Shown here one piece after another: positions 1 to 25,400 of a stretch of 60,151 bases of DNA. The notes under the pieces were generated by a model that searched no databases, was not told the DNA's origin, and saw nothing but the letters and a program-made list of their open reading frames with translations. Location of the stretch: positions 1 to 60,151 of IMG/VR virus record IMGVR_UViG_3300008113_000221, one strand, 5' to 3'. Numbering within the stretch: the stretch's first letter is position 1; each line of letters opens with the position of its first letter. Both the position numbers and the translations under genes were made by a program. The stretch is from a virus (Duplodnaviria; Caudoviricetes).

Positions 1-1
1 A

Positions 2-193
2 GTTACTGCATCTGTTAAGTCTTATGAGTTAGTTTTTTTCTATCCTTGTGAATACGGCATTGAAACCCTTGACGGCTTATACTCATGGGAGAGCAAAGAC
101 CCAGCAAACAGGCGATTGATAGAAGTGGAAAGCCTTGATGCGGCATACTCCATAATTGACAATAAAAAACTACTAAAGACGTTTGCGGCTTAA
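2..193 (+). CDS. hypothetical early protein, 5'-truncated by the window edge
   Basis: Open frame read by hand from base 2 (VTASVKSYEL...LLKTFAA*), TAA at 191-193. Confidence 0.6.
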   Translation, partial: VTASVKSYELVFFYPCEYGIETLDGLYSWESKDPANRRLIEVESLDAAYSIIDNKKLLKTFAA

Positions 194-221
194 CCAATTT
201 TTAACCAATAAATTTAAACAC

Positions 222-524
222 ATGAACACACAAACATTAACAATTCACGGACTATCTGAAAACATTGCATATTGCGAAGCTCAAGGACTTGCTAATGTCT
301 TTTCGGCTTATGCTGAACATTGTGCAGGGGAAACAATCATGGACGGCGGGGCAGGTTTCAATCCCAATTCGGGATATATTTACATAGCCCTTGAAAATGG
401 CATTCAAATTTGTTCCATGCTTGGTAGAGAGGTTGAATACCTTGTAACAGACTTTGAAGACGGGGAAGAAACTTTCTTCAGTACATACAATGAGGCGGAG
501 GAATTTTTGTGCAAAGAAGCATAA
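222..524 (+). CDS. hypothetical acidic early protein
   Basis: ORF track 183..524; true start probably ATG222 after the shared TAAACAC-ATG motif. Confidence 0.75.
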   Translation: MNTQTLTIHGLSENIAYCEAQGLANVFSAYAEHCAGETIMDGGAGFNPNSGYIYIALENGIQICSMLGREVEYLVTDFEDGEETFFSTYNEAEEFLCKEA

Positions 525-531
525 ACAATAA

Positions 532-558
532 ACGGGCTGAAATATGCCCGTATTTTTT
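532..558 (+). terminator. hairpin plus U-tract (intrinsic terminator-like)
   Basis: ACGGGC-TGAAATAT-GCCCGT-A-TTTTTT, intergenic. Confidence 0.6.
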
Positions 559-577
559 AACCTTAAATTTTAAACAC

Positions 578-799
578 ATGAAACAGATTTTTGCAAAATT
601 CAACAGCAAATGCGCTGAAACTGGTAAAACATTAAAAAAGGGAGATTTGATATTTTACGACTATTCAAGCCGTAAGGCATACCACATAGACAGCCAAGCA
701 GCTAAAGGAGACAATGAAACAGAAAGTACAAAAAACTACATTAATGCCCAAGAGGAGGCGTACTGGGATAATTTAACGGGCGGATATTATTCAAGATAA
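578..799 (+). CDS. hypothetical early protein
   Basis: ORF track; ATG578 after TAAACAC. Confidence 0.75.
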   Translation: MKQIFAKFNSKCAETGKTLKKGDLIFYDYSSRKAYHIDSQAAKGDNETESTKNYINAQEEAYWDNLTGGYYSR

Positions 800-805
800 A
801 AACGA

Positions 806-858
806 GGTTAGCTGATGAGGATTGAATATCCGAAACGGGCATTTTGCCCGTATTAACC
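806..858 (+). ncRNA. type I hammerhead ribozyme
   Basis: Stem I GGTTAG/TTAACC; core CTGATGA 812-818; stem II GGAT-TGAAT-ATCC; GAAA 832-835; stem III CGGGC-ATTTT-GCCCG; cleavage triplet GTA 850-852. Confidence 0.9.
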
Positions 859-871
859 AAACATTTAAAAA

Positions 872-970
872 ATGCAAACGATTAAAACTTTTGCCGTTCC
901 TCTCATTGTCCTTGTTATTGTTTCAGCATGTTTCATCATGCAAGTTTACACAATGGCAATAAACTGGTAA
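872..970 (+). CDS. 32-aa single-transmembrane peptide
   Basis: Read by hand: MQTIKTFAVPLIVLVIVSACFIMQVYTMAINW*; A-rich start context; fills the gap between ribozyme and hairpin. Confidence 0.6.
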   Translation: MQTIKTFAVPLIVLVIVSACFIMQVYTMAINW

Positions 971-977
971 AGAATTA

Positions 978-1002
978 AGGCGGTGAAATTCCGCCTATTT
1001 TT
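978..1002 (+). terminator. hairpin plus U-tract (intrinsic terminator-like)
   Basis: AGGCGG-TGAAATT-CCGCCT-ATTTTT. Confidence 0.6.
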
Positions 1003-1023
1003 CAATCCTTTAACGTAATACAC

Positions 1024-1218
1024 ATGAGAAACATAGAAACAAAATACATATTTTTTAAGACGGAAAATGAAGCTATTAACCACATGATAGACAAAAGCTA
1101 CCAATACATTGACCCGATAAAATTTGAACATGAAATAATTAACAAAAAATGCTATTATTCAAAAACACATAACATAATTTTTATAGTTGATGAACTTGGC
1201 ATATTAACAACTGATTAA
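1024..1218 (+). CDS. hypothetical early protein
   Basis: ORF with ATACAC-ATG start. Confidence 0.7.
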   Translation: MRNIETKYIFFKTENEAINHMIDKSYQYIDPIKFEHEIINKKCYYSKTHNIIFIVDELGILTTD

Positions 1219-1261
1219 CAAGTCATTGTGAGCTATTTAACATTTCAGCACATAATTTTAC
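1204..1261 (+). promoter_or_regulatory. early promoter P1 with phased TTAACA boxes
   Basis: TTAACA at 1204, 1215, 1237; TTGTGA at 1226; TAATTTTAC at 1253 (variant of the Bacteroidota -7 element TAnnTTTG). Confidence 0.7.
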
Positions 1262-1294
1262 ATTACAATTTTAAACACACAAAAAACCAAACAC

Positions 1295-1585
1295 ATGGAA
1301 CAGATTAAAACTATTGACATTAACGCAAAAGAGTGGTTTGACAAGGTGAACGGGAATAGCTATTTTTCAGCCGAAATAGTTACAAATTATGGCATGGATG
1401 ATGCTAAAATGTATGTGCTACCTTTTCAATATGGCTACGATGACCACTACAAACACATGGCAGCAAAAGAATTATTTGAACAAGGCATAATATCAACAGA
1501 GAAATTTTGGGAACTAAGAGAGCAGGGAATAATAGTGAGAGCCAACATACAGCATAATTGCAAAAAAAGGGAACTGATACATTAA
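1295..1585 (+). CDS. hypothetical early protein
   Basis: ORF with AAACAC-ATG start. Confidence 0.8.
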   Translation: MEQIKTIDINAKEWFDKVNGNSYFSAEIVTNYGMDDAKMYVLPFQYGYDDHYKHMAAKELFEQGIISTEKFWELREQGIIVRANIQHNCKKRELIH

Positions 1586-1639
1586 CAGCTGATTAACAAT
1601 GTATTGTGAGTTCTTTAACATCTTACAAATTACCTTTAC
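1582..1639 (+). promoter_or_regulatory. early promoter P2 with phased TTAACA boxes
   Basis: TTAACA at 1582, 1593, 1615; TTGTGA at 1604; TACCTTTAC at 1631; spacing identical to P1. Confidence 0.7.
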
Positions 1640-1662
1640 TTCATAATCAAAAACACAAACAC

Positions 1663-1830
1663 ATGAGCAAAGAAACACTAAAGGAAGCAATTGAAACCTA
1701 CGGAAAAGAAATCGTATCGGAAGTAATACAGATAGTTGAACTTGCCGACACAGACGGGGCATGGGCAACATTCCAAGACATGGGCATGGAGGAACATGCC
1801 GAAATAGTTGAAATGCTATATTTTAACTAA
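1663..1830 (+). CDS. hypothetical acidic early protein
   Basis: ATG1663 after AAACAC, in the frame of track ORF 1606..1830. Confidence 0.7.
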   Translation: MSKETLKEAIETYGKEIVSEVIQIVELADTDGAWATFQDMGMEEHAEIVEMLYFN

Positions 1831-1835
1831 CCCGA

Positions 1836-1871
1836 ACGGGAACGGGAAACCCATAAACCCGTATTTTTTTT
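1836..1871 (+). terminator. branched hairpin plus U-tract
   Basis: ACGGG...CCCGT enclosing GGG-AAA-CCC, followed by A and a T run. Confidence 0.5.
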
Positions 1872-1892
1872 AACCAAACAAATAAAATACAC

Positions 1893-2339
1893 ATGAATCA
1901 AATTATACCTGAATTTGAAATAAAGCTAAAGATTAAAGGAAAGAAATCGGAACTGAAACAAATTAGAGGTTCAGAAGATGCAGCCGAGATATGCCGCATG
2001 TGTTTTGATGAAGGAAAAATAAATTGGATTGAAGAATTTATCGTAATAGGACTGAATAGAGCAAATAAGGTACAAGGTTTCTATAAAGTAAGTTCGGGAG
2101 GAGTTACGGGAACAGTTGCCGACCCAAGAATCGTTTTTCAATTTGCACTATTAAGCAATGCAACAAGCATAATAATAGCACACAACCATCCAAGTGGTAA
2201 CCTAAAGCCCTCTGACGCTGATATAACCCTAACCAAGAAAATGAAACAATCGGGAGAAGCATTGGATATCAAACTACTTGACCATATCATAGTAACAGAC
2301 GAAGGTTACACATCATTGTCAGACGAAGGAGTTATCTAA
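1893..2339 (+). CDS. radC: RadC-like JAB/MPN domain protein
   Basis: EEFIVIGLN, SSGGVTGTVADPR, AHNHPSGNLKPSDAD and IKLLDHIIV motifs. Confidence 0.9.
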   Translation: MNQIIPEFEIKLKIKGKKSELKQIRGSEDAAEICRMCFDEGKINWIEEFIVIGLNRANKVQGFYKVSSGGVTGTVADPRIVFQFALLSNATSIIIAHNHPSGNLKPSDADITLTKKMKQSGEALDIKLLDHIIVTDEGYTSLSDEGVI

Positions 2340-8761: not shown

Positions 8762-9208
8762 ATGAGCGATAAAGAACTGATGAGTAACGTAAAGATTGAC
8801 AAGATTAAGATGCTGATTAAGAAAGCCGAGGAGTTTCATAGCCTTGCTCTTGAGATAGGGATAGACACTGGACTGATAGAGGCGATAGCTGGTAATAGCG
8901 TAATCATTGAGCCGTACTATATCATTGAGCTTGTTCAAAGAAGGCTTAACGTAGATATAAATACCAACTCAAGGAAGAAAGAAATCGTAGAGGCTAAAAG
9001 GATTATATGCTGGTTACTACAAAAGTATGCAAGGCTAAGTCTAAAGAAGATTATAGTATATGTAAATCTTAAAGACCATAGCACAGCCATACACCATATC
9101 CAGACGCTGAATGACTATCTGGAGCATGATGAATACTTGCAACACCTTATTGCAGGATTTGAAGAAGATATTATAAATTTTTCTAATAAGAAAAGCCAAT
9201 ATCATTGA
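8762..9208 (+). CDS. protein with a DnaA domain IV-like (Bac_DnaA_C) HTH
   Basis: SRKKEIVEAKRIICWLLQKYARLSLKKI...KDHSTAIH resembles the DnaA C-terminal RDHxTV motif. Confidence 0.75.
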   Translation: MSDKELMSNVKIDKIKMLIKKAEEFHSLALEIGIDTGLIEAIAGNSVIIEPYYIIELVQRRLNVDINTNSRKKEIVEAKRIICWLLQKYARLSLKKIIVYVNLKDHSTAIHHIQTLNDYLEHDEYLQHLIAGFEEDIINFSNKKSQYH

Positions 9209-11061
9209 TTACTATATTCCAGACTTTTAAAGACATAGATACTCCGCATCATGTTACCGTAAGCTCAGTACTCAATGGTATAAAAAATGGCAAGGTAAAG
9301 GATGATGTTGAAAAGATACGCTCATCAACAAGTGATGCTGAAATTGGAGAGCTGAAACTAAAGCTACCATGCGTTCTATACGCTGGAAGATTTGACATAC
9401 CAGTTATTAGGGAGCGTAAAGATGGTACAATGTATAAGTCTTACAGAACAGACGAATCATTATCCATGCACTCAAAGCTTGTTCCATTTGACATTGATGA
9501 TATTGATGACATACCGAAATACAAGGAGGATGCAAAGAGAGACCCGTATATATATGCTCTATGGGTAAGCCCTTCTGGAACAGGACTTCATGGGCTTATA
9601 AAGATAGCTGATGGCAGCAGACATGAGGAGCATTACACCGCCCTTCTAAAAAGGTATCCAGTCTTTGACCCTACAGCAAGGAACCCTTCAAGGGTATTGT
9701 TCTTGTCTTATGACCCAGATATTTATATCAACGAAGATGCTAAGACTTTCTTTGAGGTGCAGGAAAAGGTTGTATCTGCTGGCATCAACATGACTGGTGG
9801 ATTTACAGACTACAAAAGGCTTGGCGTGGCAGCTAAGATGATAAGGATAAGTGAGCAAGGAGCAAGGCATCACGCTGTTATCAAGTCTTCATACCTTGTA
9901 GGTGGGCTTATTGCTGGAGGAATTGTGGAAGAGTATATAGGCAGGATGGTTCTGGAGTACGAGGTTAATAACAAGTTCGCTCCAGAAGAAAGAGAGATAG
10001 AGATAAAAGCTGTTCACGATGGCATCAAGGCTGGTATGTATATGCCTATCAGCGATATTGACAGGTACGAACACGAGGTAATGCATGCTGTAGGGGCTAT
10101 AGAAGAAGAGCTTTCGTTTCTATCTAACAACAGAGCCGATGAAGAGTTCATTAGGAAGTACAGAGCAGGCTTAATTCCGATGGGTAAACCATTTGGGTAT
10201 GAAGACATGGATAAGCATTTACTCCTCAATGAAGGTCAGTTCTATGCGATTCTGAGCCATACCTCAACTGGTAAGACGCAGCTAACCTTATGGCTTATAT
10301 TCCTTTCTGCCTTGAAATATGACTGGTGCTGGGTAATATACACTGGAGAGAATAGAGTTGCATCTGTTAAGATGAGGTTTGTAGAGTTCTTTACAGGGTA
10401 TAGGATAAAGGATTGCCCAGAGGACTTCTTTCAACAGGCTATTAAATGGATTAATGATAGGATATTCTTTGTCAATAACGATGAGATGCACGGGTATGAT
10501 GACATTCTTAAGTATACGGAGTCCGTTTCTAAGTATCATGCCATTAAAGGATTGCTCATAGACCCTGTTAATTCACTGAAGATGAATGGAAAAGACTCTA
10601 AGTATAATCACGAGATGGAGATGTATACTAACATGCTGCTCTATACAAAGAGGACTAATATAACTATCCTATTATCCATACATACAAGGAGTGAATCTCA
10701 GAGACAGAGGGACAAGAATGGTAATCAGCCTATGCCATACCCTGCTGATGCTGATGGTGGGGCTGTGCTTGTTAATAAGACTGATGTGTTTATCGTGATG
10801 AATAGGAATATCCAAGACCCAGAAAGCTGGATGATTAATGAGATAAAGGTTCTGAAGCACAGGACAGCAGAGTATTCTGGAGGCGGAGTAACTAAGGCCA
10901 ATGAATCTATAAGGCTGAAGATGAATAAAGGAGTGGAGTTCACTGACGAGTATGGACACTTGCCCATTGACAGGAGCTACCTAAGATTAGACAACAGGCT
11001 GATAGACGACAAGCCAAACGATGAAGATATAGAAAGCTTTATACACGAAATAAAACTTTAA
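9205..11061 (+). CDS. primase-helicase: BT4734/VirE-N primase-like domain fused to a DnaB-like SF4 helicase
   Basis: LPCVLYAGRF, FDIDD, SPSGTGLH and SRVLFLSYDP in the N-terminal part; Walker A SHTSTGKT and Walker B LLIDP in the C-terminal part; TTG start overlaps the previous stop. Confidence 0.82.
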   Translation: MITIFQTFKDIDTPHHVTVSSVLNGIKNGKVKDDVEKIRSSTSDAEIGELKLKLPCVLYAGRFDIPVIRERKDGTMYKSYRTDESLSMHSKLVPFDIDDIDDIPKYKEDAKRDPYIYALWVSPSGTGLHGLIKIADGSRHEEHYTALLKRYPVFDPTARNPSRVLFLSYDPDIYINEDAKTFFEVQEKVVSAGINMTGGFTDYKRLGVAAKMIRISEQGARHHAVIKSSYLVGGLIAGGIVEEYIGRMVLEYEVNNKFAPEEREIEIKAVHDGIKAGMYMPISDIDRYEHEVMHAVGAIEEELSFLSNNRADEEFIRKYRAGLIPMGKPFGYEDMDKHLLLNEGQFYAILSHTSTGKTQLTLWLIFLSALKYDWCWVIYTGENRVASVKMRFVEFFTGYRIKDCPEDFFQQAIKWINDRIFFVNNDEMHGYDDILKYTESVSKYHAIKGLLIDPVNSLKMNGKDSKYNHEMEMYTNMLLYTKRTNITILLSIHTRSESQRQRDKNGNQPMPYPADADGGAVLVNKTDVFIVMNRNIQDPESWMINEIKVLKHRTAEYSGGGVTKANESIRLKMNKGVEFTDEYGHLPIDRSYLRLDNRLIDDKPNDEDIESFIHEIKL

Positions 11062-11063
11062 CT

Positions 11064-11390
11064 ATGACGGAAGGGCAAAAGGAATCTTTATTCATGGCCT
11101 ACATAAGCGCTTGTAATGGATATATGTACGCCAGCGACCTTGAGAAAGACAAGTCGCTGCATGTTGTAACAAGGCAGGCGGTTGGAGCTATGGCAAACAA
11201 GTTCAAATGGATTAAGACATCGCTTGAGGTTAAGTCTAATTCAGCCATACTAAGGCAGGTTGATACCCTTAGATACGATGAAATATTTAGGCTGATGATT
11301 AACCTTGACGAGGATAACCAGCATAAGCTTGAGATGTTGATAAGCAAATTTGTAGATGATTTAAACCCAGATAATGAAGGTAACAAATAG
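11064..11390 (+). CDS. hypothetical protein
   Basis: ORF track. Confidence 0.75.
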   Translation: MTEGQKESLFMAYISACNGYMYASDLEKDKSLHVVTRQAVGAMANKFKWIKTSLEVKSNSAILRQVDTLRYDEIFRLMINLDEDNQHKLEMLISKFVDDLNPDNEGNK

Positions 11391-11583
11391 TATTGCGGAG
11401 TATATTAAAAAAAATGATGAAAGAAAGAATTTAAGATGGAGATACAAAGATGGAGAGCTGATGTTTGAGTATGATGATGGATTATGGTTCAACGAGAAGC
11501 ATTTAGATGAGCTATTCCCAATGTATCAGTATAAAAAGTTCAATGACAAAGGAATCAATCCAGACACCACTAAATTTAACTAA
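11374..11583 (+). CDS. hypothetical protein
   Basis: ORF track. Confidence 0.7.
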   Translation: MKVTNSIAEYIKKNDERKNLRWRYKDGELMFEYDDGLWFNEKHLDELFPMYQYKKFNDKGINPDTTKFN

Positions 11584-11584
11584 T

Positions 11585-11725
11585 ATGAAAAAACTATTAT
11601 TGTCAGCGTATTGCAAGTTCTTTGGCCACAGATGGAAGATTAACCACATATACGGAGCTTCTGCTGTAGTTACCTGTAAGAGGTGCGGAGAGCACAGGCA
11701 TGACTTAATATCTGAGCTGCTATGA
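11585..11725 (+). CDS. small DUF1660-like Zn-binding protein
   Basis: CKFFGHRW...CKRCG motif; ATG11585. Confidence 0.6.
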   Translation: MKKLLLSAYCKFFGHRWKINHIYGASAVVTCKRCGEHRHDLISELL

Positions 11726-11943
11726 TACACGAGATTAAGTCTTCAATAGCTGTGCATACTCCACATGGAGAAGGAGTAGCTATGTTCATAATCGACTATG
11801 GCATTGATGTTAATTCTGTATGGGTAGTAAGGCTTGACGGAGGGCATGTAAAACATTACTATTCAGATGATATACGGGTATACGACAATCCGATGAATGG
11901 GAAAGGCTTTAATATAGAAATACCAGATAGCTGGGAAAAGTAA
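11722..11943 (+). CDS. hypothetical protein
   Basis: ATGA-coupled ORF. Confidence 0.7.
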   Translation: MIHEIKSSIAVHTPHGEGVAMFIIDYGIDVNSVWVVRLDGGHVKHYYSDDIRVYDNPMNGKGFNIEIPDSWEK

Positions 11944-11988
11944 TAAATATATTACAAATGTTTTTTTTCTCAAGTATATTAATTTTTG

Positions 11989-11996
11989 TATATTTG
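11989..11996 (+). promoter_or_regulatory. Bacteroidota housekeeping-sigma -7 element
   Basis: TATATTTG matches TAnnTTTG; intergenic, upstream of the initiator leader. Confidence 0.7.
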
Positions 11997-11999
11997 AAC

Positions 12000-12091
12000 T
12001 GGAATGTACCATATTCCATTAAGAAAACTTATTGGCTTGAGGAGGCGCTTGCAATGGTACTGCAAGCAAATCTGATAGCCTTTTTTATTTT
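12000..12091 (+). ncRNA. structured 5' leader with two complementary hairpin loops (kissing-loop pseudoknot)
   Basis: TGGAAT-[GTACCAT]-ATTCCA and GCTTGCA-[ATGGTAC]-TGCAAGC; the loops are exact reverse complements; outer GGCT/AGCC stem followed by a U-tract. Confidence 0.75.
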
Positions 12092-12724
12092 ATGCCTGAT
12101 AGCTATATAAAGCGCACAAAGCGCAACAAGAACTTTACCACACTTGGCAATAATCTATTTTCTTCTGGATTATCCGCTGAATCTCTTGGTATACTATGCT
12201 TTATCCTTCATCTTCCAGATGACTGGGTGCTAAGAAAAGGTCACTTGCAGAAACAATTTAAGATAGGGAGAGATAAAATGACAAGGATATTTAAGGAGTT
12301 AAAAGAGAAGGGGTACCTTGCTGATTTATTGTATATCAAGGGTGAAGATGGAAAGTTTGATGGAGCTCATTATATAATATATGACGAGCCTATTAAAGAG
12401 GATAATAAAGTTTTAGACAAGGCGAACAATGTTATAGAAGCGGATAGCCTGAAAACCCGTACTCCGGAAAACCAGTCTACCCGAAACCAGTATACTGGAA
12501 ACCAGTCTACCCAAGACCAGTGCACTGGAAAACCTACACATACTAAAGACTATAATAACAAAGAACTAATTATACCAAATACTAACCAACCAAACCAACA
12601 ATCAGCGAGAATTAAAAGAGACCCAGAAGATGACGCTCCAGAAGGAATGTATACGGTTATATTCCATGATGGTACTCGTAAATATTACAAAGACGATGAT
12701 ATGTCTTGGCTTGATAAAAAATAA
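12092..12724 (+). CDS. phage replication initiator (HTH, lambda O/replisome-organizer-like architecture)
   Basis: N-terminal wHTH (NFTTLGN...LSAESLGILCFIL.LPDDW...GRDKM...KELKEKGYL) followed by a linker containing iterons. Confidence 0.75.
   Translation: MPDSYIKRTKRNKNFTTLGNNLFSSGLSAESLGILCFILHLPDDWVLRKGHLQKQFKIGRDKMTRIFKELKEKGYLADLLYIKGEDGKFDGAHYIIYDEPIKEDNKVLDKANNVIEADSLKTRTPENQSTRNQYTGNQSTQDQCTGKPTHTKDYNNKELIIPNTNQPNQQSARIKRDPEDDAPEGMYTVIFHDGTRKYYKDDDMSWLDKK
12452..12535 (+). repeat. 15-bp iterons, probable replication origin
   Basis: A(A/G)ACCAGT at 12469, 12484, 12499 and 12514, degenerate flanking copies, then an AT-rich tract. Confidence 0.75.
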
Positions 12725-12798
12725 ATACAAATAATGTAAAACAAATAGTAATAACAAAACGCTGATAATCAGCAACTTAAACAAGTAAATAATAAATA

Positions 12799-12963
12799 AT
12801 GGATAATGTAAATGTAATTTATTCTCAAGGCAAGCTTAAATTTGTATTCAAGAACTATGAGATACAAGAAGATGGAGTAGCTATTGAGCTTACTCCAGAA
12901 GAATATGAAAAGCTAATAGAATACATAGAGCTATCAAAAGATATAGACAACGCTTTTTTATAA
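12799..12963 (+). CDS. hypothetical 54-aa protein
   Basis: Read by hand: MDNVNVIYSQ...DIDNAFL*. Confidence 0.6.
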   Translation: MDNVNVIYSQGKLKFVFKNYEIQEDGVAIELTPEEYEKLIEYIELSKDIDNAFL

Positions 12964-12978
12964 TTAAAAACAAATACA

Positions 12979-13197
12979 ATGGAAAAGAAAACAACCAAGA
13001 AGTTGGTAAAGAGAGCTGATGTAAAGAAGTCTGCTCCTAAAAAATCAGCGCCTAAGAAAGCAGTCAAAAAGAAAGTAGAAGTATTTGTAGAAGAACAGGA
13101 GTTCGACTTCTTTAACTTTGATATACCAAGAAGTGTATATGCAAGACTATTCTGGACATACTTTAAGCTATACATTAAATCATTCTTTAGAAAATAA
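12979..13197 (+). CDS. small Lys-rich protein with a histone-H1-like repeat
   Basis: KKSAPKKSAPKKAVKKK. Confidence 0.65.
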   Translation: MEKKTTKKLVKRADVKKSAPKKSAPKKAVKKKVEVFVEEQEFDFFNFDIPRSVYARLFWTYFKLYIKSFFRK

Positions 13198-22448: not shown

Positions 22449-25400
22449 TTATGAAATTACGGGAAAGTTATTTAAGAATGCTATCAAATCCCATCTGCTA
22501 TCTGTGCTATTCCAAATAAAACCAAGATACATTGTTTTACCTAATATAGTTGTTGTAGGAAGAGCTAAGTCTGAAGATGCCCTATATGCACCTGATGAAC
22601 CTGTTGTCCAAGTTATAGCCCTTGCAGTACCATTATCTTTTATTCTTATGAGTAATTTCTGACCATTTACAAATGTCCCTGTAGGTGATGCTACTGATAG
22701 AGCAGCAGCCTGAGCTGTTATTGTAAATGTATCACCACTTGCAAGGTTTGGAGTAAGTGTTGCAGTTGATGCTGTATTTGTAGTTGTAGGCTTAAGAACA
22801 TTGTAATTTACTCCACCTGAGAATGTACCTTCTCCTAACCCATTAACTCTAAATCTTACTGTACCATTAGTGGATAAATCTATTAAATTAAATGCACTAC
22901 TACCTACAACTAAAGTAGTTCCTTGAATTAAATTACCTGTATACGTAACAATATCATTTGAGTTTACTTGCAAACCTGCAGACGATGTTGAGTTTTGATT
23001 GATTACTATTCTACCATTTTGGAATAACCCATTCCCACTTATTTGTAAGCGGTCTGCACCATTATCGGTTGTAGTGCCGATGAGTACGTTGCCACCACTT
23101 GTGATACGCATACGTTCGCTTCCACCAACTTCAAACAAAAACGGAGTACCGCCTATTGCTCTAATAACCGCAGCACCACCACCAGCAGCATTCAAATTTA
23201 AATAGCTCGTATACGCTCCAGCCGAAGATGATAATACTATACCTACATCGCTACTTGTATTAACGTGCAATGGAGCACTTGGCGAGGTAGTACCTACACC
23301 AACGTTACCGCCTTGTTTTATTACTAATCTATAAGCTGTATCATAAAAGAAAAAGTCATTGGTAGCACTTGCAAATGCTCCTTCATTACCAATAACCCAC
23401 CTTTCGGTTGAATTATTAAATGATAAATATGCATTAGTATTAGTTCCTGTCCCTTCAGATATTGTTACTTTTCTTGTTGGAGATACAGTTCCAAAACCTA
23501 CCCTATTATTAGCAGCATCTACAAACAACGTATTGGTATCTACTGTTAAGTTACCTGTGATGTTAGCACTTGCTGCCGTTACACTACTTGAGAATGTGGC
23601 TGCACCTGTTGAGGCTATGGTTAATCTTGTTGTAGTAACACCTGAATCACCATAATCTATTGTTAAGTTACCTGCACTATTTCTAAATCTATAATCTCCA
23701 TAAGCATCAGCACCCCACGTTGCATTCGTTCCACGCATCATTTCTATATCAACAACAGGAGTAGTGTTGGTAGAAGCGTGAACACAAAGTAATGCATTGC
23801 CGCTTTTTACTATTGATAAATTATCCGTAAACCTACCCGTACCATTTACATCAAGTTTATATCCTGCGTCTGTAGCTGTGCCTACTGCTAAATTACCATT
23901 AGCAAATAACGTCATAGCTTGTGTAAAGCTGATTGCGTTACCTGCCGTTCCTGAAGGAGCTTGATACCAAACATATTGACCACTATCATTTAATCCATAT
24001 AATTGTGCATATCCATTAGCAATATATTTGTTGCCTGAATTATAATATATGTTATGACCTAAATAAGTTGATGGAGATGAATATAAAGAACTTAAAGAAC
24101 CTACTTGTAATACTTTAAATGTACTCCACGCACTTGGTGTTACTCCTAAACCTAAATTGCCTGAAGCGTCATTAATTAAATTACTATTCCCTATTGTACT
24201 TGTACCTGTAAACTTAGGAAGGTAGTTAGTTGTTCCTGTGCCTGTAACAGGGTTAGTTAAAGCATTCTGTTTGCTATTAAATGTTGTCCAATCTGCACTA
24301 CTTAATGCACCTCTGTTTGTGGCAGATGCTGTTGGTAAATTGAAAGTGTGAGTGCTCGTTGCTGATGATATTGCAAAATCAGTTCCTGCTGTACCCACTG
24401 CAAATGTCTGTGTTGCTGCAGTCAATCCATTAAGTGATGTAATGGCAGCACTTATATATGTAGGAGTAAAAAATTCATAAGCAGTGTTACCTGCATTTCT
24501 CCTTAAAAGTTGACTTGCTGTTCCTGCAACAGCAGTTACAGCAGAGGTGGCATTACCAATTAACACACCCGTAAGTGTTGTTGCTCCCGTACCGCCTCTA
24601 CCAACGGCTAATGAACCTGTCCACCCAACAGTAATTGATGCAGCACGAAGTAAAGCTGTTGCAGCTGTACCACCAAGTGTTAAGGTGACATTTGTATCGT
24701 CAGTCTTTGTTAATGCTGCTCCTGTTATATCAGAACCTGCAATAGTAGCCCAAGATGGAGCTGCTGATACTGTACCCGTACCTGTCTGAGATAAAAATTG
24801 CTTTGCAGTTGTAATGTTTCCTGCAAGTCTTGTAGCAGCACCGGCAGCAACACCATATATGACATCACCAAGCGTTGTCATTGGATTGGCAAACCCAACG
24901 TAGTTTGGTATATTAAGCGTTGCACCAACTAAAGTTGCAGCACCTGAAGTTCCTGTTGTTGTTAGTGTAATAGCATTCTGCTTACTATTGAATGTAGTCC
25001 AATCAGCACTACTCAATGCACCTCTGTTTGTAGCTGATGCTGTAGGTACGTTTAATGTTATAACAGGTGTTGTTGTTCCTGTTGCTACTGTTGAACTTAA
25101 ATCTGTTCCTGTAGTTCCTAAAGTTAAAGCTGCAACAGAAGTAACTGTACCCACGCTGAATGTTCTGTTTGCACTTAAATCTTGGGCAGTACCGTTAATC
25201 GTTATTGTTCTTGTTGTAGGTACACCACCTAATCCGCTTAGTGTGTATGTAGGAACATTAAGAGTAGCCCCCACTAAAGTAGACGAACCACTTGCACCCG
25301 TTGTAGTTAGTGTTATTGCATTTTGCTTACTATTAAATGTTGTCCAATCCGTACTACTCAATGCACCTCTGTTAGTTGCAGATGCCGTTGGTATATTTAA

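What the first reader, a model, noticed from the sequence alone, without database searches (positions are those of the whole stretch)
11989..12094. Kissing-loop RNA leader directly upstream of the replication initiator
Seen: right after the TATATTTG promoter element, hairpin 1 is TGGAAT[GTACCAT]ATTCCA (12000-12018) and hairpin 2 is GCTTGCA[ATGGTAC]TGCAAGC (12047-12067). Their 7-nt loops are exact reverse complements. Hairpin 2 sits on an outer stem GGCU-U-GA-GGA/UCU-GA-U-AGCC with tandem G.A pairs, followed by UUUUUUAUUUU-AUG. Known: pseudoknot and antisense control of rep expression exists in IncI/IncB plasmids. Inference: a cis-regulatory RNA (attenuator, autoregulatory protein site or riboswitch-like element) that sets initiator dosage. 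I do not recognise it as a named family.
Basis: partly seen in the sequence, partly recalled or inferred. Interest (0 to 1): 0.78.

Follow-up and report, generated by a model that had tools for sequence, protein, structure and literature searches.

The report
Kissing-loop leader RNA of phage rep
A folded stretch of RNA lies between a promoter and the start of the replication-initiator gene in a group of uncultured Flavobacteria-type phages. Its two loops stay complementary in every relative, so it is a real and apparently undescribed regulatory RNA whose exact mode of action is still open.

Summary
The window is a 60-kb phage record whose terminase resembles only those of Flavobacteriia phages. 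At 11989-12094 a TATATTTG promoter box is followed by hairpin P1, an A-rich linker, and a composite hairpin (outer stem, G.A internal loop, hairpin P3). A U-tract and the AUG of a replication-initiator gene come next.

The 7-nt loops of P1 and P3 are exact complements. I found 11 leader types in relatives. In every one, a promoter-proximal element pairs with the interior of the terminator-like hairpin, although the paired sequences differ (Fisher p about 8e-10). The stems covary too. G.U pairs (20, against 0 A.C) and folding energies point to the + strand RNA.

The element is single-copy. It precedes three unrelated initiator families, so an initiator-specific protein site is unlikely. It matches no Rfam family. 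It has no conserved leader peptide, no antisense promoter, and no relation to the iterons inside rep.

My best reading is a portable cis-acting leader, most likely a pseudoknot-locked attenuator, that keeps initiator expression low. The mechanism is inferred, because no transcript data could be obtained.

The parts
11989..11996 (+). TATATTTG, a match to the Bacteroidota -7 promoter consensus TAnnTTTG (consensus recalled). The transcript is inferred to start a few bases downstream, at about 12000.
   Evidence: Read. A single TAnnTTTG lies 99-148 nt upstream of the ATG in all 11 leaders examined. It is also present in L160 and L157. It is the only intergenic consensus box on the + strand of the early/replication half of the window.
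12000..12018 (+). Hairpin P1: stem 12000-12005 with 12013-12018, loop L1 GUACCAU at 12006-12012.
   Evidence: The stem covaries (TGGAAT/ATTCCA, TGCTAT/ATAGCA, TGGAG/CTCCA).
12019..12033 (+). A-rich linker. UUAAGAA at 12019-12025 is invariant in the window's clade.
   Evidence: Invariant columns. Linkers are A-rich in all types.
12034..12038 (+). 5' arm of the outer (terminator-like) stem. GGCU pairs with AGCC 12077-12080, and U12038 faces U12076.
   Evidence: helix 3: 97.5% of cells paired, 2 pairs changed on both sides.
12039..12046 (+). 5' strand of the G.A internal loop (GAGGAGGC). It is k-turn-like in relatives (GCCC-AAA-GA-GGA).
   Evidence: G12042 and A12043 are invariant. The register is ambiguous in the window.
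12047..12067 (+). Hairpin P3: stem 12047-12053 with 12061-12067, loop L3 AUGGUAC at 12054-12060, which pairs with L1.
   Evidence: In one search, P3 is 100% paired with 5 of 7 pairs changed on both sides. The L1:L3 helix is 100% paired with 4 of 7 pairs changed on both sides.
12068..12080 (+). 3' strand: invariant AAAUC (12068-12072), G.A partners G12074-A12075, and the 3' arm of the outer stem at 12076-12080.
   Evidence: Invariant columns.
12081..12091 (+). U-tract UUUUUUAUUUU, lying directly between the outer stem and the AUG.
   Evidence: Positions -12 to -1 of rep hold 10 T and 1 A, the most T of 48 ORFs (mean 2.8 T, 6.25 A).
12092..12724 (+). Replication-initiator gene (210 aa; HTH_36 / DnaD-like replication-initiation PHROGs).
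12454..12528 (+). Four 15-nt iterons inside the initiator gene (a presumed origin). These are context, not part of the RNA element.
   Evidence: Relatives carry 15-nt repeats of other sequence at the same place.

Best explanation
SHOWN: the stretch from about 12000 to 12091 folds, as + strand RNA, into a conserved pseudoknot. The loop of a promoter-proximal hairpin (P1) pairs with the loop of a second hairpin (P3). P3 sits on an outer stem that contains tandem G.A pairs. That outer stem is followed at once by a U-tract and, 9-16 nt later, by the AUG of a replication-initiation gene. The element occurs once per phage genome. It travels with three non-homologous initiator families in uncultured Flavobacteriia-type phages.

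INFERRED: it acts in cis as a fixed or conditionally tunable brake on initiator expression. A consensus host-type promoter starts transcription at P1. The composite hairpin plus U-tract then works as an intrinsic terminator (attenuator) just before the AUG. The loop-loop helix forms before the 3' arm of the outer stem is made. This pre-organises or locks the irregular or large-looped terminator hairpin. Most transcripts would end as an RNA of about 85-90 nt, and only read-through transcripts would carry rep. The unusual U-rich, A-poor initiation region would further limit translation.

My confidence that the RNA structure is real is about 0.95. That it acts in cis on replication-gene expression, about 0.75. 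That attenuation is the main mechanism, about 0.4.
For: Structure:
- In the window's clade (8 sequences) the L1:L3 helix is paired in 100% of cells, with 4 of 7 pairs changed on both sides.
- In the same count P3 is 100% paired, with 5 of 7 pairs changed on both sides. None of 500 shuffles reaches the observed covariation score, and slid controls pair 33-39% of cells.
- A model built without the pseudoknot, and without L160, finds L160 at 62 bits, E about 4e-12. The L160 loops are CCGTAC/GTACGG.
- Second clade: GTAGTAGC/GCTACTAC (L004), GTAGAAGC/GCTTCTAC (L157), ATAGGAGT/GCTCCTAT (L023).
- Further types L007, L009, L027 and L028 pair a 5' element with the interior of the last hairpin.
- Over all 11 types the combined shuffle test gives Fisher p = 7.8e-10.

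Strand:
- There are 20 G.U and 0 A.C pairs among 262 helix positions (the helices were drawn by eye on the + strand, so this count is biased).
- The + strand folds better in 9 of 11 types.

Cis role and terminator reading:
- A promoter box is present in all 11 leaders.
- The distance from stem end to ATG is 9-16 nt in 11 of 11 types.
- The rep U-tract is the extreme among 48 ORFs, which are otherwise A-rich.
- The same phage uses plain hairpin-plus-T-run terminators in front of early genes.
- In L004, L023 and L027 the A-rich linker extends the stem by pairing with the U-tract, as in classical terminators.
- There is one copy per genome.

Independence from the initiator: the leader precedes a Lin1244_N initiator in L157/L159. 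In L160-L162 it precedes an HNH gene, then a phrog_11233 initiator, then a DnaB helicase. BLASTP between the two initiators is not significant.
Against: - There are no transcript start, end or abundance data. The promoter and terminator are inferred from consensus only.
- The consensus terminator scan did not call this site, because the stem is interrupted and the outer stem has only 4-5 pairs.
- In L007 and L009 the tails after the stem (AACAUAUUUUACU and GACUUUAUUAUU) are U-poor for a terminator.
- The loop-loop helix does not compete with the terminator stem. No on/off switch is evident, and nothing shows that the pseudoknot changes termination.
- The fixed short distance to the AUG fits translational control equally well.
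- The types are related by descent, so the shuffle p-values overstate independence.
- The window's own fold is only z = -1.84.
Confidence: 0.55

Rival explanations
1. Translational control. The compact pseudoknot next to an SD-less, U-rich initiation region sets how well 30S subunits load on the rep AUG. It could repress or insulate. It could also activate, as the IncI-alpha/IncB rep pseudoknot does (recalled). Termination would be secondary or absent.
For: The distance from stem end to AUG is fixed at 9-16 nt in 11 of 11 types. The initiation region is the only U-rich one among 48 A-rich ones. The topology matches the IncI type: a 5' hairpin loop pairs with a site just upstream of the rep start (recalled). 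The L007 and L009 tails are poor U-tracts.
Against: No conserved pairing of either pseudoknot strand with positions -14 to +40 of the start region was found (3 of 22 tests at p<0.05, in no common pattern). There is no conserved leader ORF (4 of 11 leaders have no ATG). No antisense TAnnTTTG was found in 10 of 11. U-richness with a GC-rich stem is the signature of a terminator, not of the A-rich initiation sites this phage uses elsewhere.
Confidence: 0.25
2. A stand-alone small RNA. The promoter, the fold of about 85 nt and the terminator would together form a gene. One possible use is to sense genome copy number.
For: The element has its own promoter box and a terminator-like end. Covariation cannot tell intramolecular from intermolecular loop pairing.
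Against: The element always abuts the initiator AUG within 9-16 nt and is tied to replication genes of three families. The G.A/k-turn-like bend and the A-rich linker fit folding back within one molecule. No second target site was found in the window.
Confidence: 0.08
3. A riboswitch-like or protein-binding sensor. The invariant unpaired nucleotides of the window's clade (UUAAGAA, AAAUC, the G.A pairs) would form a pocket for a metabolite, a host protein or RNA polymerase. Binding would stabilise the terminator fold.
For: Invariant unpaired positions lie within otherwise covarying helices. The architecture, a kissing loop plus a k-turn-like bend, resembles that of several riboswitch aptamers (recalled).
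Against: These nucleotides are absent from the other clades, which keep only the pseudoknot topology. There is no Rfam match. An initiator-specific protein is unlikely given three unrelated initiators and no likeness to the iterons.
Confidence: 0.08
4. A DNA-level element: operator inverted repeats for a DNA-binding protein, a cruciform, or part of the origin, with no role for RNA.
For: The two loops form an inverted repeat 41 bp apart next to an initiator gene that carries iterons.
Against: The stems around both loops covary independently. G.U pairs occur only in the + strand sense (with the bias noted there), and the + strand is more stable in 9 of 11 types. The loop words do not occur in the iteron arrays. 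The promoter, U-tract and ATG share one orientation in all types.
Confidence: 0.03

Closest known systems
IncI-alpha / IncB / IncL-M plasmid rep leader pseudoknot (repZ/repA; recalled from the literature, not read here)
   Same: The loop of a 5' hairpin pairs over a distance with a site just upstream of the replication-initiator start codon. The element belongs to the rep mRNA leader.
   Different: There is no conserved leader peptide and no antisense RNA promoter. The 3' partner lies in the loop of a terminator-like hairpin followed by a U-tract. The host is Bacteroidota-type without Shine-Dalgarno use. There is no sequence or Rfam relationship.
pT181 / pIP501-type rep attenuation (recalled)
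   Same: A terminator hairpin with a U-tract lies directly upstream of the rep start, within the leader transcribed from the rep promoter.
   Different: In those plasmids a 5' segment pairs with the 5' arm of the terminator (a preemptor), and an antisense RNA decides the outcome. Here the 5' element pairs with the loop, is compatible with the stem, and no antisense promoter was found.
Phage T4 gene 32 leader pseudoknot (mentioned in PMC10690425, passages read; the mechanism is recalled)
   Same: A pseudoknot in the 5' leader of a phage replication gene, followed by an unstructured A/U-rich stretch that reaches the start codon.
   Different: gp32 binds its own leader. Here three unrelated initiators share the leader, so a gene-specific autoregulator is unlikely. 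The fold and the sequences are unrelated.
Kissing-loop plus k-turn architectures of riboswitch aptamers, e.g. lysine and SAM-I (recalled)
   Same: A G.A/k-turn-like bend in one helix lets its terminal loop reach another loop. The helix is coupled to an intrinsic terminator.
   Different: There is no multi-helix junction and no conserved pocket shared by all clades. There is no Rfam hit, and the gene context is replication, not metabolism.
Lambda-type terminators upstream of replication or late genes (tR1; pR'-tR' 6S RNA) and HK022 put RNA (recalled)
   Same: A promoter-proximal short transcript ends at a terminator placed ahead of key phage genes. In put, a two-hairpin RNA just downstream of the promoter acts in cis.
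   Different: No antiterminator gene or nut/qut/put-like site was identified. Here the structured RNA includes the terminator itself.

Membership tests
Any Rfam 15 family | A covariance-model match at or near the gathering score | tested here: not met
   cmscan of 11000-13000 at E up to 10 gave 3 weak matches (snoRNA and lncRNA models). None overlaps 11989-12094.
IncI/IncB-type rep pseudoknot control | The loop of a 5' hairpin pairs with a site close upstream of the rep start | tested here: met
   L1 pairs with L3, which lies 32-38 nt upstream of the AUG. The pairing is conserved in 11 of 11 types.
IncI/IncB-type rep pseudoknot control | A leader peptide ORF whose translation opens the structure | tested here: not met
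   4 of 11 leaders have no ATG. Where ATGs occur they differ in place and frame.
IncI/IncB-type rep pseudoknot control | An antisense RNA gene overlapping the 5' hairpin | tested here: not met
   no minus-strand TAnnTTTG between the promoter and ATG+60 in 10 of 11 types; none in the window between 9027 and 16638. This is a consensus-based test only.
pT181-type attenuator | A terminator hairpin plus U-tract just upstream of the rep start | tested here: inconclusive
   The U-tract and a GC-rich closing stem are present. The consensus scan did not call the site, and no 3' ends have been measured.
pT181-type attenuator | A mutually exclusive pairing of a 5' segment with the 5' arm of the terminator | tested here: not met
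   the 5' element pairs with the loop or interior of the hairpin, not with its arms.
Kink-turn | A canonical stem, a 3-nt bulge, tandem sheared G.A pairs, then a non-canonical stem | tested here: inconclusive
   The sequence pattern is met in the L002 and L005 types (GCCC-AAA-GA-xGA with UCyGA-GGGC). In the window and L160 (GAGGAGGC) a register without a bulge is equally possible and is the MFE choice. The geometry cannot be tested here.
Intrinsic (Rho-independent) terminator | A stable GC-rich hairpin followed at once by a U-rich tail | tested here: inconclusive
   The tail holds 10 T in 12 nt, the top of 48 ORFs. The stem is interrupted, so the site was not called. The L007 and L009 tails are weaker.
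Riboswitch | A conserved ligand pocket shared by all members | tested here: not met
   The invariant unpaired nucleotides are confined to the window's clade. The other clades share only the topology. Ligand binding cannot be tested here.

The most novel reading that the evidence does not exclude
The element is a self-contained, portable RNA device that has moved between non-homologous replication-initiator genes of Flavobacteriia phages. It may do more than attenuate passively. It could sense a general signal (RNA polymerase, ribosome, a metabolite or Mg2+). Alternatively, its short terminated form could kiss nascent leaders of other genome copies through the same L1/L3 loops. That would give the phage an RNA-only way to count genomes and throttle initiator synthesis.
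Probability: 0.15. Interest if true: 0.8.

Novelty: new variant of a known kind. Interest (0 to 1): 0.58.

Why it matters
Gene regulation is poorly understood in Bacteroidota and their phages, which lack Shine-Dalgarno-based initiation. Few cis-regulatory RNAs are known there. This element has clear covariation and a pseudoknot that is easy to test by mutation. Its tie to replication initiation across unrelated initiator proteins suggests a general, transferable solution for keeping initiator levels low. It could serve as a compact expression-control part for Flavobacteria. It would also add a new family to RNA databases.

Tried and rejected
- **Rfam:** nothing at the site.
- **Other copies in the window:** none of either hairpin.
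- **ATGGTAC 7-mer:** it occurs 12 times against 5.6 expected. The other copies are coding DGT/NGT-type contexts without hairpins, so I dropped this lead.
- **Loops as mimics of the iterons or as Rep operators:** rejected. No loop word lies in the iteron arrays of the 9 rep ORFs examined.
- **Leader peptide and antisense promoter:** rejected.
- **Switch with the start region:** no consistent pairing.
- **Phage isolates:**
  - No DNA match in the phages collection.
  - Terminase relatives from Flavobacterium, Cellulophaga and a spring virome lack this Rep (0 of 3 records).
  - In cultured Bacteroides, Alistipes and Parabacteroides phages the rep homologue overlaps the upstream gene, with no leader (4 of 4 looked at).
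- **Prokaryote genomes:** no Rep relative. The DNA pattern gave 3 hits, all false on reading.
- **First DNA pattern in viral contigs:** it gave 103 stretches. I screened the 80 returned as loci with model R1, and only the two known contigs matched.
- **Further protein-based scans:** the query built from P0012, P0009 and P0011 gave one distant locus without the leader. Alignment A6 gave 5 new distant loci without it.
- **Rows left out of the 11-type counts:**
  - Distant Rep relatives L010-L017, L032, L033, L137, L143-L145 and L151. I only read these. They show no TAnnTTTG-leader arrangement.
  - Duplicates and microvariants of the 11 types.
- **Expression:** no RNA holder is listed. Contigs of runs X1, X2, X3 and X5 cover nothing of 11997-12185. 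There is therefore no information either way.
- **Literature:** searches found no description of this element.

Full report
**The locus.** The window is a 60,151-bp IMG/VR virus record estimated 96% complete. Its large terminase matches 87 phage records: Flavobacterium 68, Cellulophaga 15, Tenacibaculum 2, Maribacter 1 and one unclassified. Consensus TAnnTTTG boxes precede many genes with short leaders. I therefore read it as a Flavobacteriia-type podophage; the promoter consensus is recalled. The ORF at 12092-12724 (210 aa) matches HTH_36 weakly and several replication-initiation or DnaD-like PHROGs. It carries four 15-nt iterons at 12454-12528. A primase/helicase gene lies upstream, at 9205-11061.

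**The observation.** The + strand MFE fold reproduces P1, P3 and the outer stem. Taken alone the fold is only mildly unusual (z = -1.84). The 7-nt loop complementarity is reached in 189 of 5000 shuffles. No Rfam family matches the site.

**Relatives.** A protein search gave 29 relatives of the initiator. DNA loci came from viral contigs (16 loci) and metagenome contigs (16 loci).
- All 22 loci whose match is at least 42% identical and starts within the first 8 residues carry a leader of the same build.
- The 10 more distant loci do not.
- Two DNA patterns taken from conserved unpaired parts of the leader, with the loop positions left free, found two further types. These are L160-L162 and L157/L159.

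Together this gives 11 leader types:
- the window's clade: window, L160, L002 and L005;
- a second clade: L004, L157 and L023;
- four singletons: L007, L009, L027 and L028.

**Covariation.**
- In the window's clade (8 sequences) the L1:L3 helix is paired in 100% of cells, with 4 of 7 pairs changed on both sides.
- P3 is 100% paired, with 5 of 7 pairs changed on both sides.
- None of 500 shuffles reaches the covariation score, and slid controls pair only 33-39% of cells.
- Model R1 contains neither the pseudoknot nor L160. It still finds L160 at 62 bits. The L160 loops are again complementary, CCGTAC/GTACGG, and its P1 and P3 stems differ.
- In the second clade one loop-loop position shows three different Watson-Crick pairs (U-A, A-U, G-C). 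Another changes G-C to A-U.
- The singletons pair a 5' element of 8-21 nt with the interior of the last hairpin.
- Over all 11 types the longest Watson-Crick run between the 5' part and the hairpin interior gives Fisher p = 7.8e-10. The types are related, so this overstates independence.

**Strand and molecule.** Helices hold 20 G.U and 0 A.C pairs among 262 positions. I drew these helices by eye on the + strand, which biases the count. An unbiased check agrees: the + strand folds better in 9 of 11 types. The promoter box, U-tract and ATG share one orientation in every type. A DNA-only element or a minus-strand RNA is therefore unlikely.

**Anatomy.** The parts run in this order:
- a TAnnTTTG box, present once, 99-148 nt from the ATG, in all 11 leaders;
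- the 5' element, usually a hairpin loop;
- an A-rich linker;
- a GC-closed hairpin whose loop holds the complement;
- a U-rich tail;
- the AUG, 9-16 nt after the stem.

In the window's clade the hairpin is composite: an outer stem, invariant tandem G.A pairs, three further pairs, an invariant AAA bulge, then P3. The L002 and L005 types fit the k-turn sequence pattern. The window and L160 (GAGGAGGC) allow two registers. The linker word UUAAGAA is invariant in this clade only.

**What it is attached to.** Most types precede the window-type initiator. L157/L159 precede a Lin1244_N initiator. L160-L162 precede an HNH gene, then a phrog_11233 initiator, then a DnaB-like helicase. That initiator shows no BLASTP similarity to the window's. 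The element occurs once per genome in the 3 of 5 records that R1 can recognise. It is thus a portable cassette tied to replication-initiation genes, not to one protein.

**Mechanism.** Several observations point to an intrinsic terminator in the leader:
- The rep initiation region holds 10 T and 1 A in 12 nt. The other 47 ORFs are A-rich, with means over all 48 ORFs of 6.25 A and 2.8 T.
- The closing stem is GC-rich.
- The linker pairs with the U-tract in three types.
- The phage uses plain hairpin-plus-T-run terminators before its early genes.

I therefore favour an attenuator whose irregular or large-looped hairpin is pre-organised by the loop-loop helix. Several points count against this reading:
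- The consensus terminator scan does not call the site.
- Two types have weak U-tails.
- The pseudoknot does not compete with the stem, so no switch is visible.
- No transcript data exist.

Translational control at the adjacent SD-less start is the main rival. I tested and did not find a leader peptide or an antisense promoter. I also found no conserved pairing with the start region and no likeness to the iterons.

**Known systems.** The topology recalls the IncI/IncB rep pseudoknot. The terminator position recalls pT181-type attenuation. The defining antisense RNA, leader peptide and preemptor pairing are all absent. The bend plus kissing loop recalls riboswitch aptamers, but no pocket is shared by all clades. 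My literature searches found no description of this element.

**Verdict.** This is a real, conserved and apparently undescribed pseudoknotted leader RNA of phage replication-initiation genes. It is a new variant of the known kind "structured rep leader/attenuator". The structure is well supported. The function is inferred.

Noticed in passing
window 12454-12528: Four tandem 15-nt iterons lie inside the initiator ORF, encoding a repetitive peptide. Relatives carry 15-nt repeats of different sequence at the same place, plus a second pair of direct repeats 16-17 nt apart near the NKELI-coding part. This is presumably the origin, inside the initiator gene as in lambda O (the lambda comparison is recalled).
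   Followed up: partly
window 1-1900: Small early ORFs are each preceded by a GC-rich hairpin plus T-run (532-551, 978-996, and about 1838-1868) and by a shared start context ending in AAACACATG. A repeat of about 33 nt (CTGATTAACAAGTCATTGTGAGCTATTTAACAT-like) occurs at about 1212 and 1589. It may be a phage-specific early promoter or operator.
   Followed up: no
window, 48 ORFs of at least 100 aa: Positions -12 to -1 are A-rich in nearly all genes (mean 6.25 A, 2.8 T) and lack Shine-Dalgarno motifs. This fits Bacteroidota-type initiation. rep is the single U-rich exception.
   Followed up: yes
L162 11059-11451 (minus strand of the locus); also L160 504-896: A 130-aa HNH-endonuclease-like gene sits between the leader and the initiator gene in one phage lineage. 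It looks like an insertion into the leader-initiator junction that kept the leader next to the new first gene.
   Followed up: partly
L011-L014, L017 (about 60 nt upstream of the distant Rep homologue): Distant relatives lack the pseudoknot leader. Instead they have a hairpin whose 3' arm contains AGGAG, followed by T7 and the ATG. This is a possible SD-sequestering hairpin or terminator.
   Followed up: no
window 22615-22633 (minus strand): A 13-nt identity to the L3 plus P3 3' arm word (ATGGTACTGCAAG) lies inside the 2000-aa structural ORF. It is probably chance once all leader 13-mers are considered.
   Followed up: no
P0005, P0013-P0017, P0020: Gene callers extended several homologues upstream through the leader, giving N-terminal extensions that end in ...FYFM or ...FLFM. 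These extensions are read from the U-tract and hairpin, so they are likely mis-annotated starts.
   Followed up: partly
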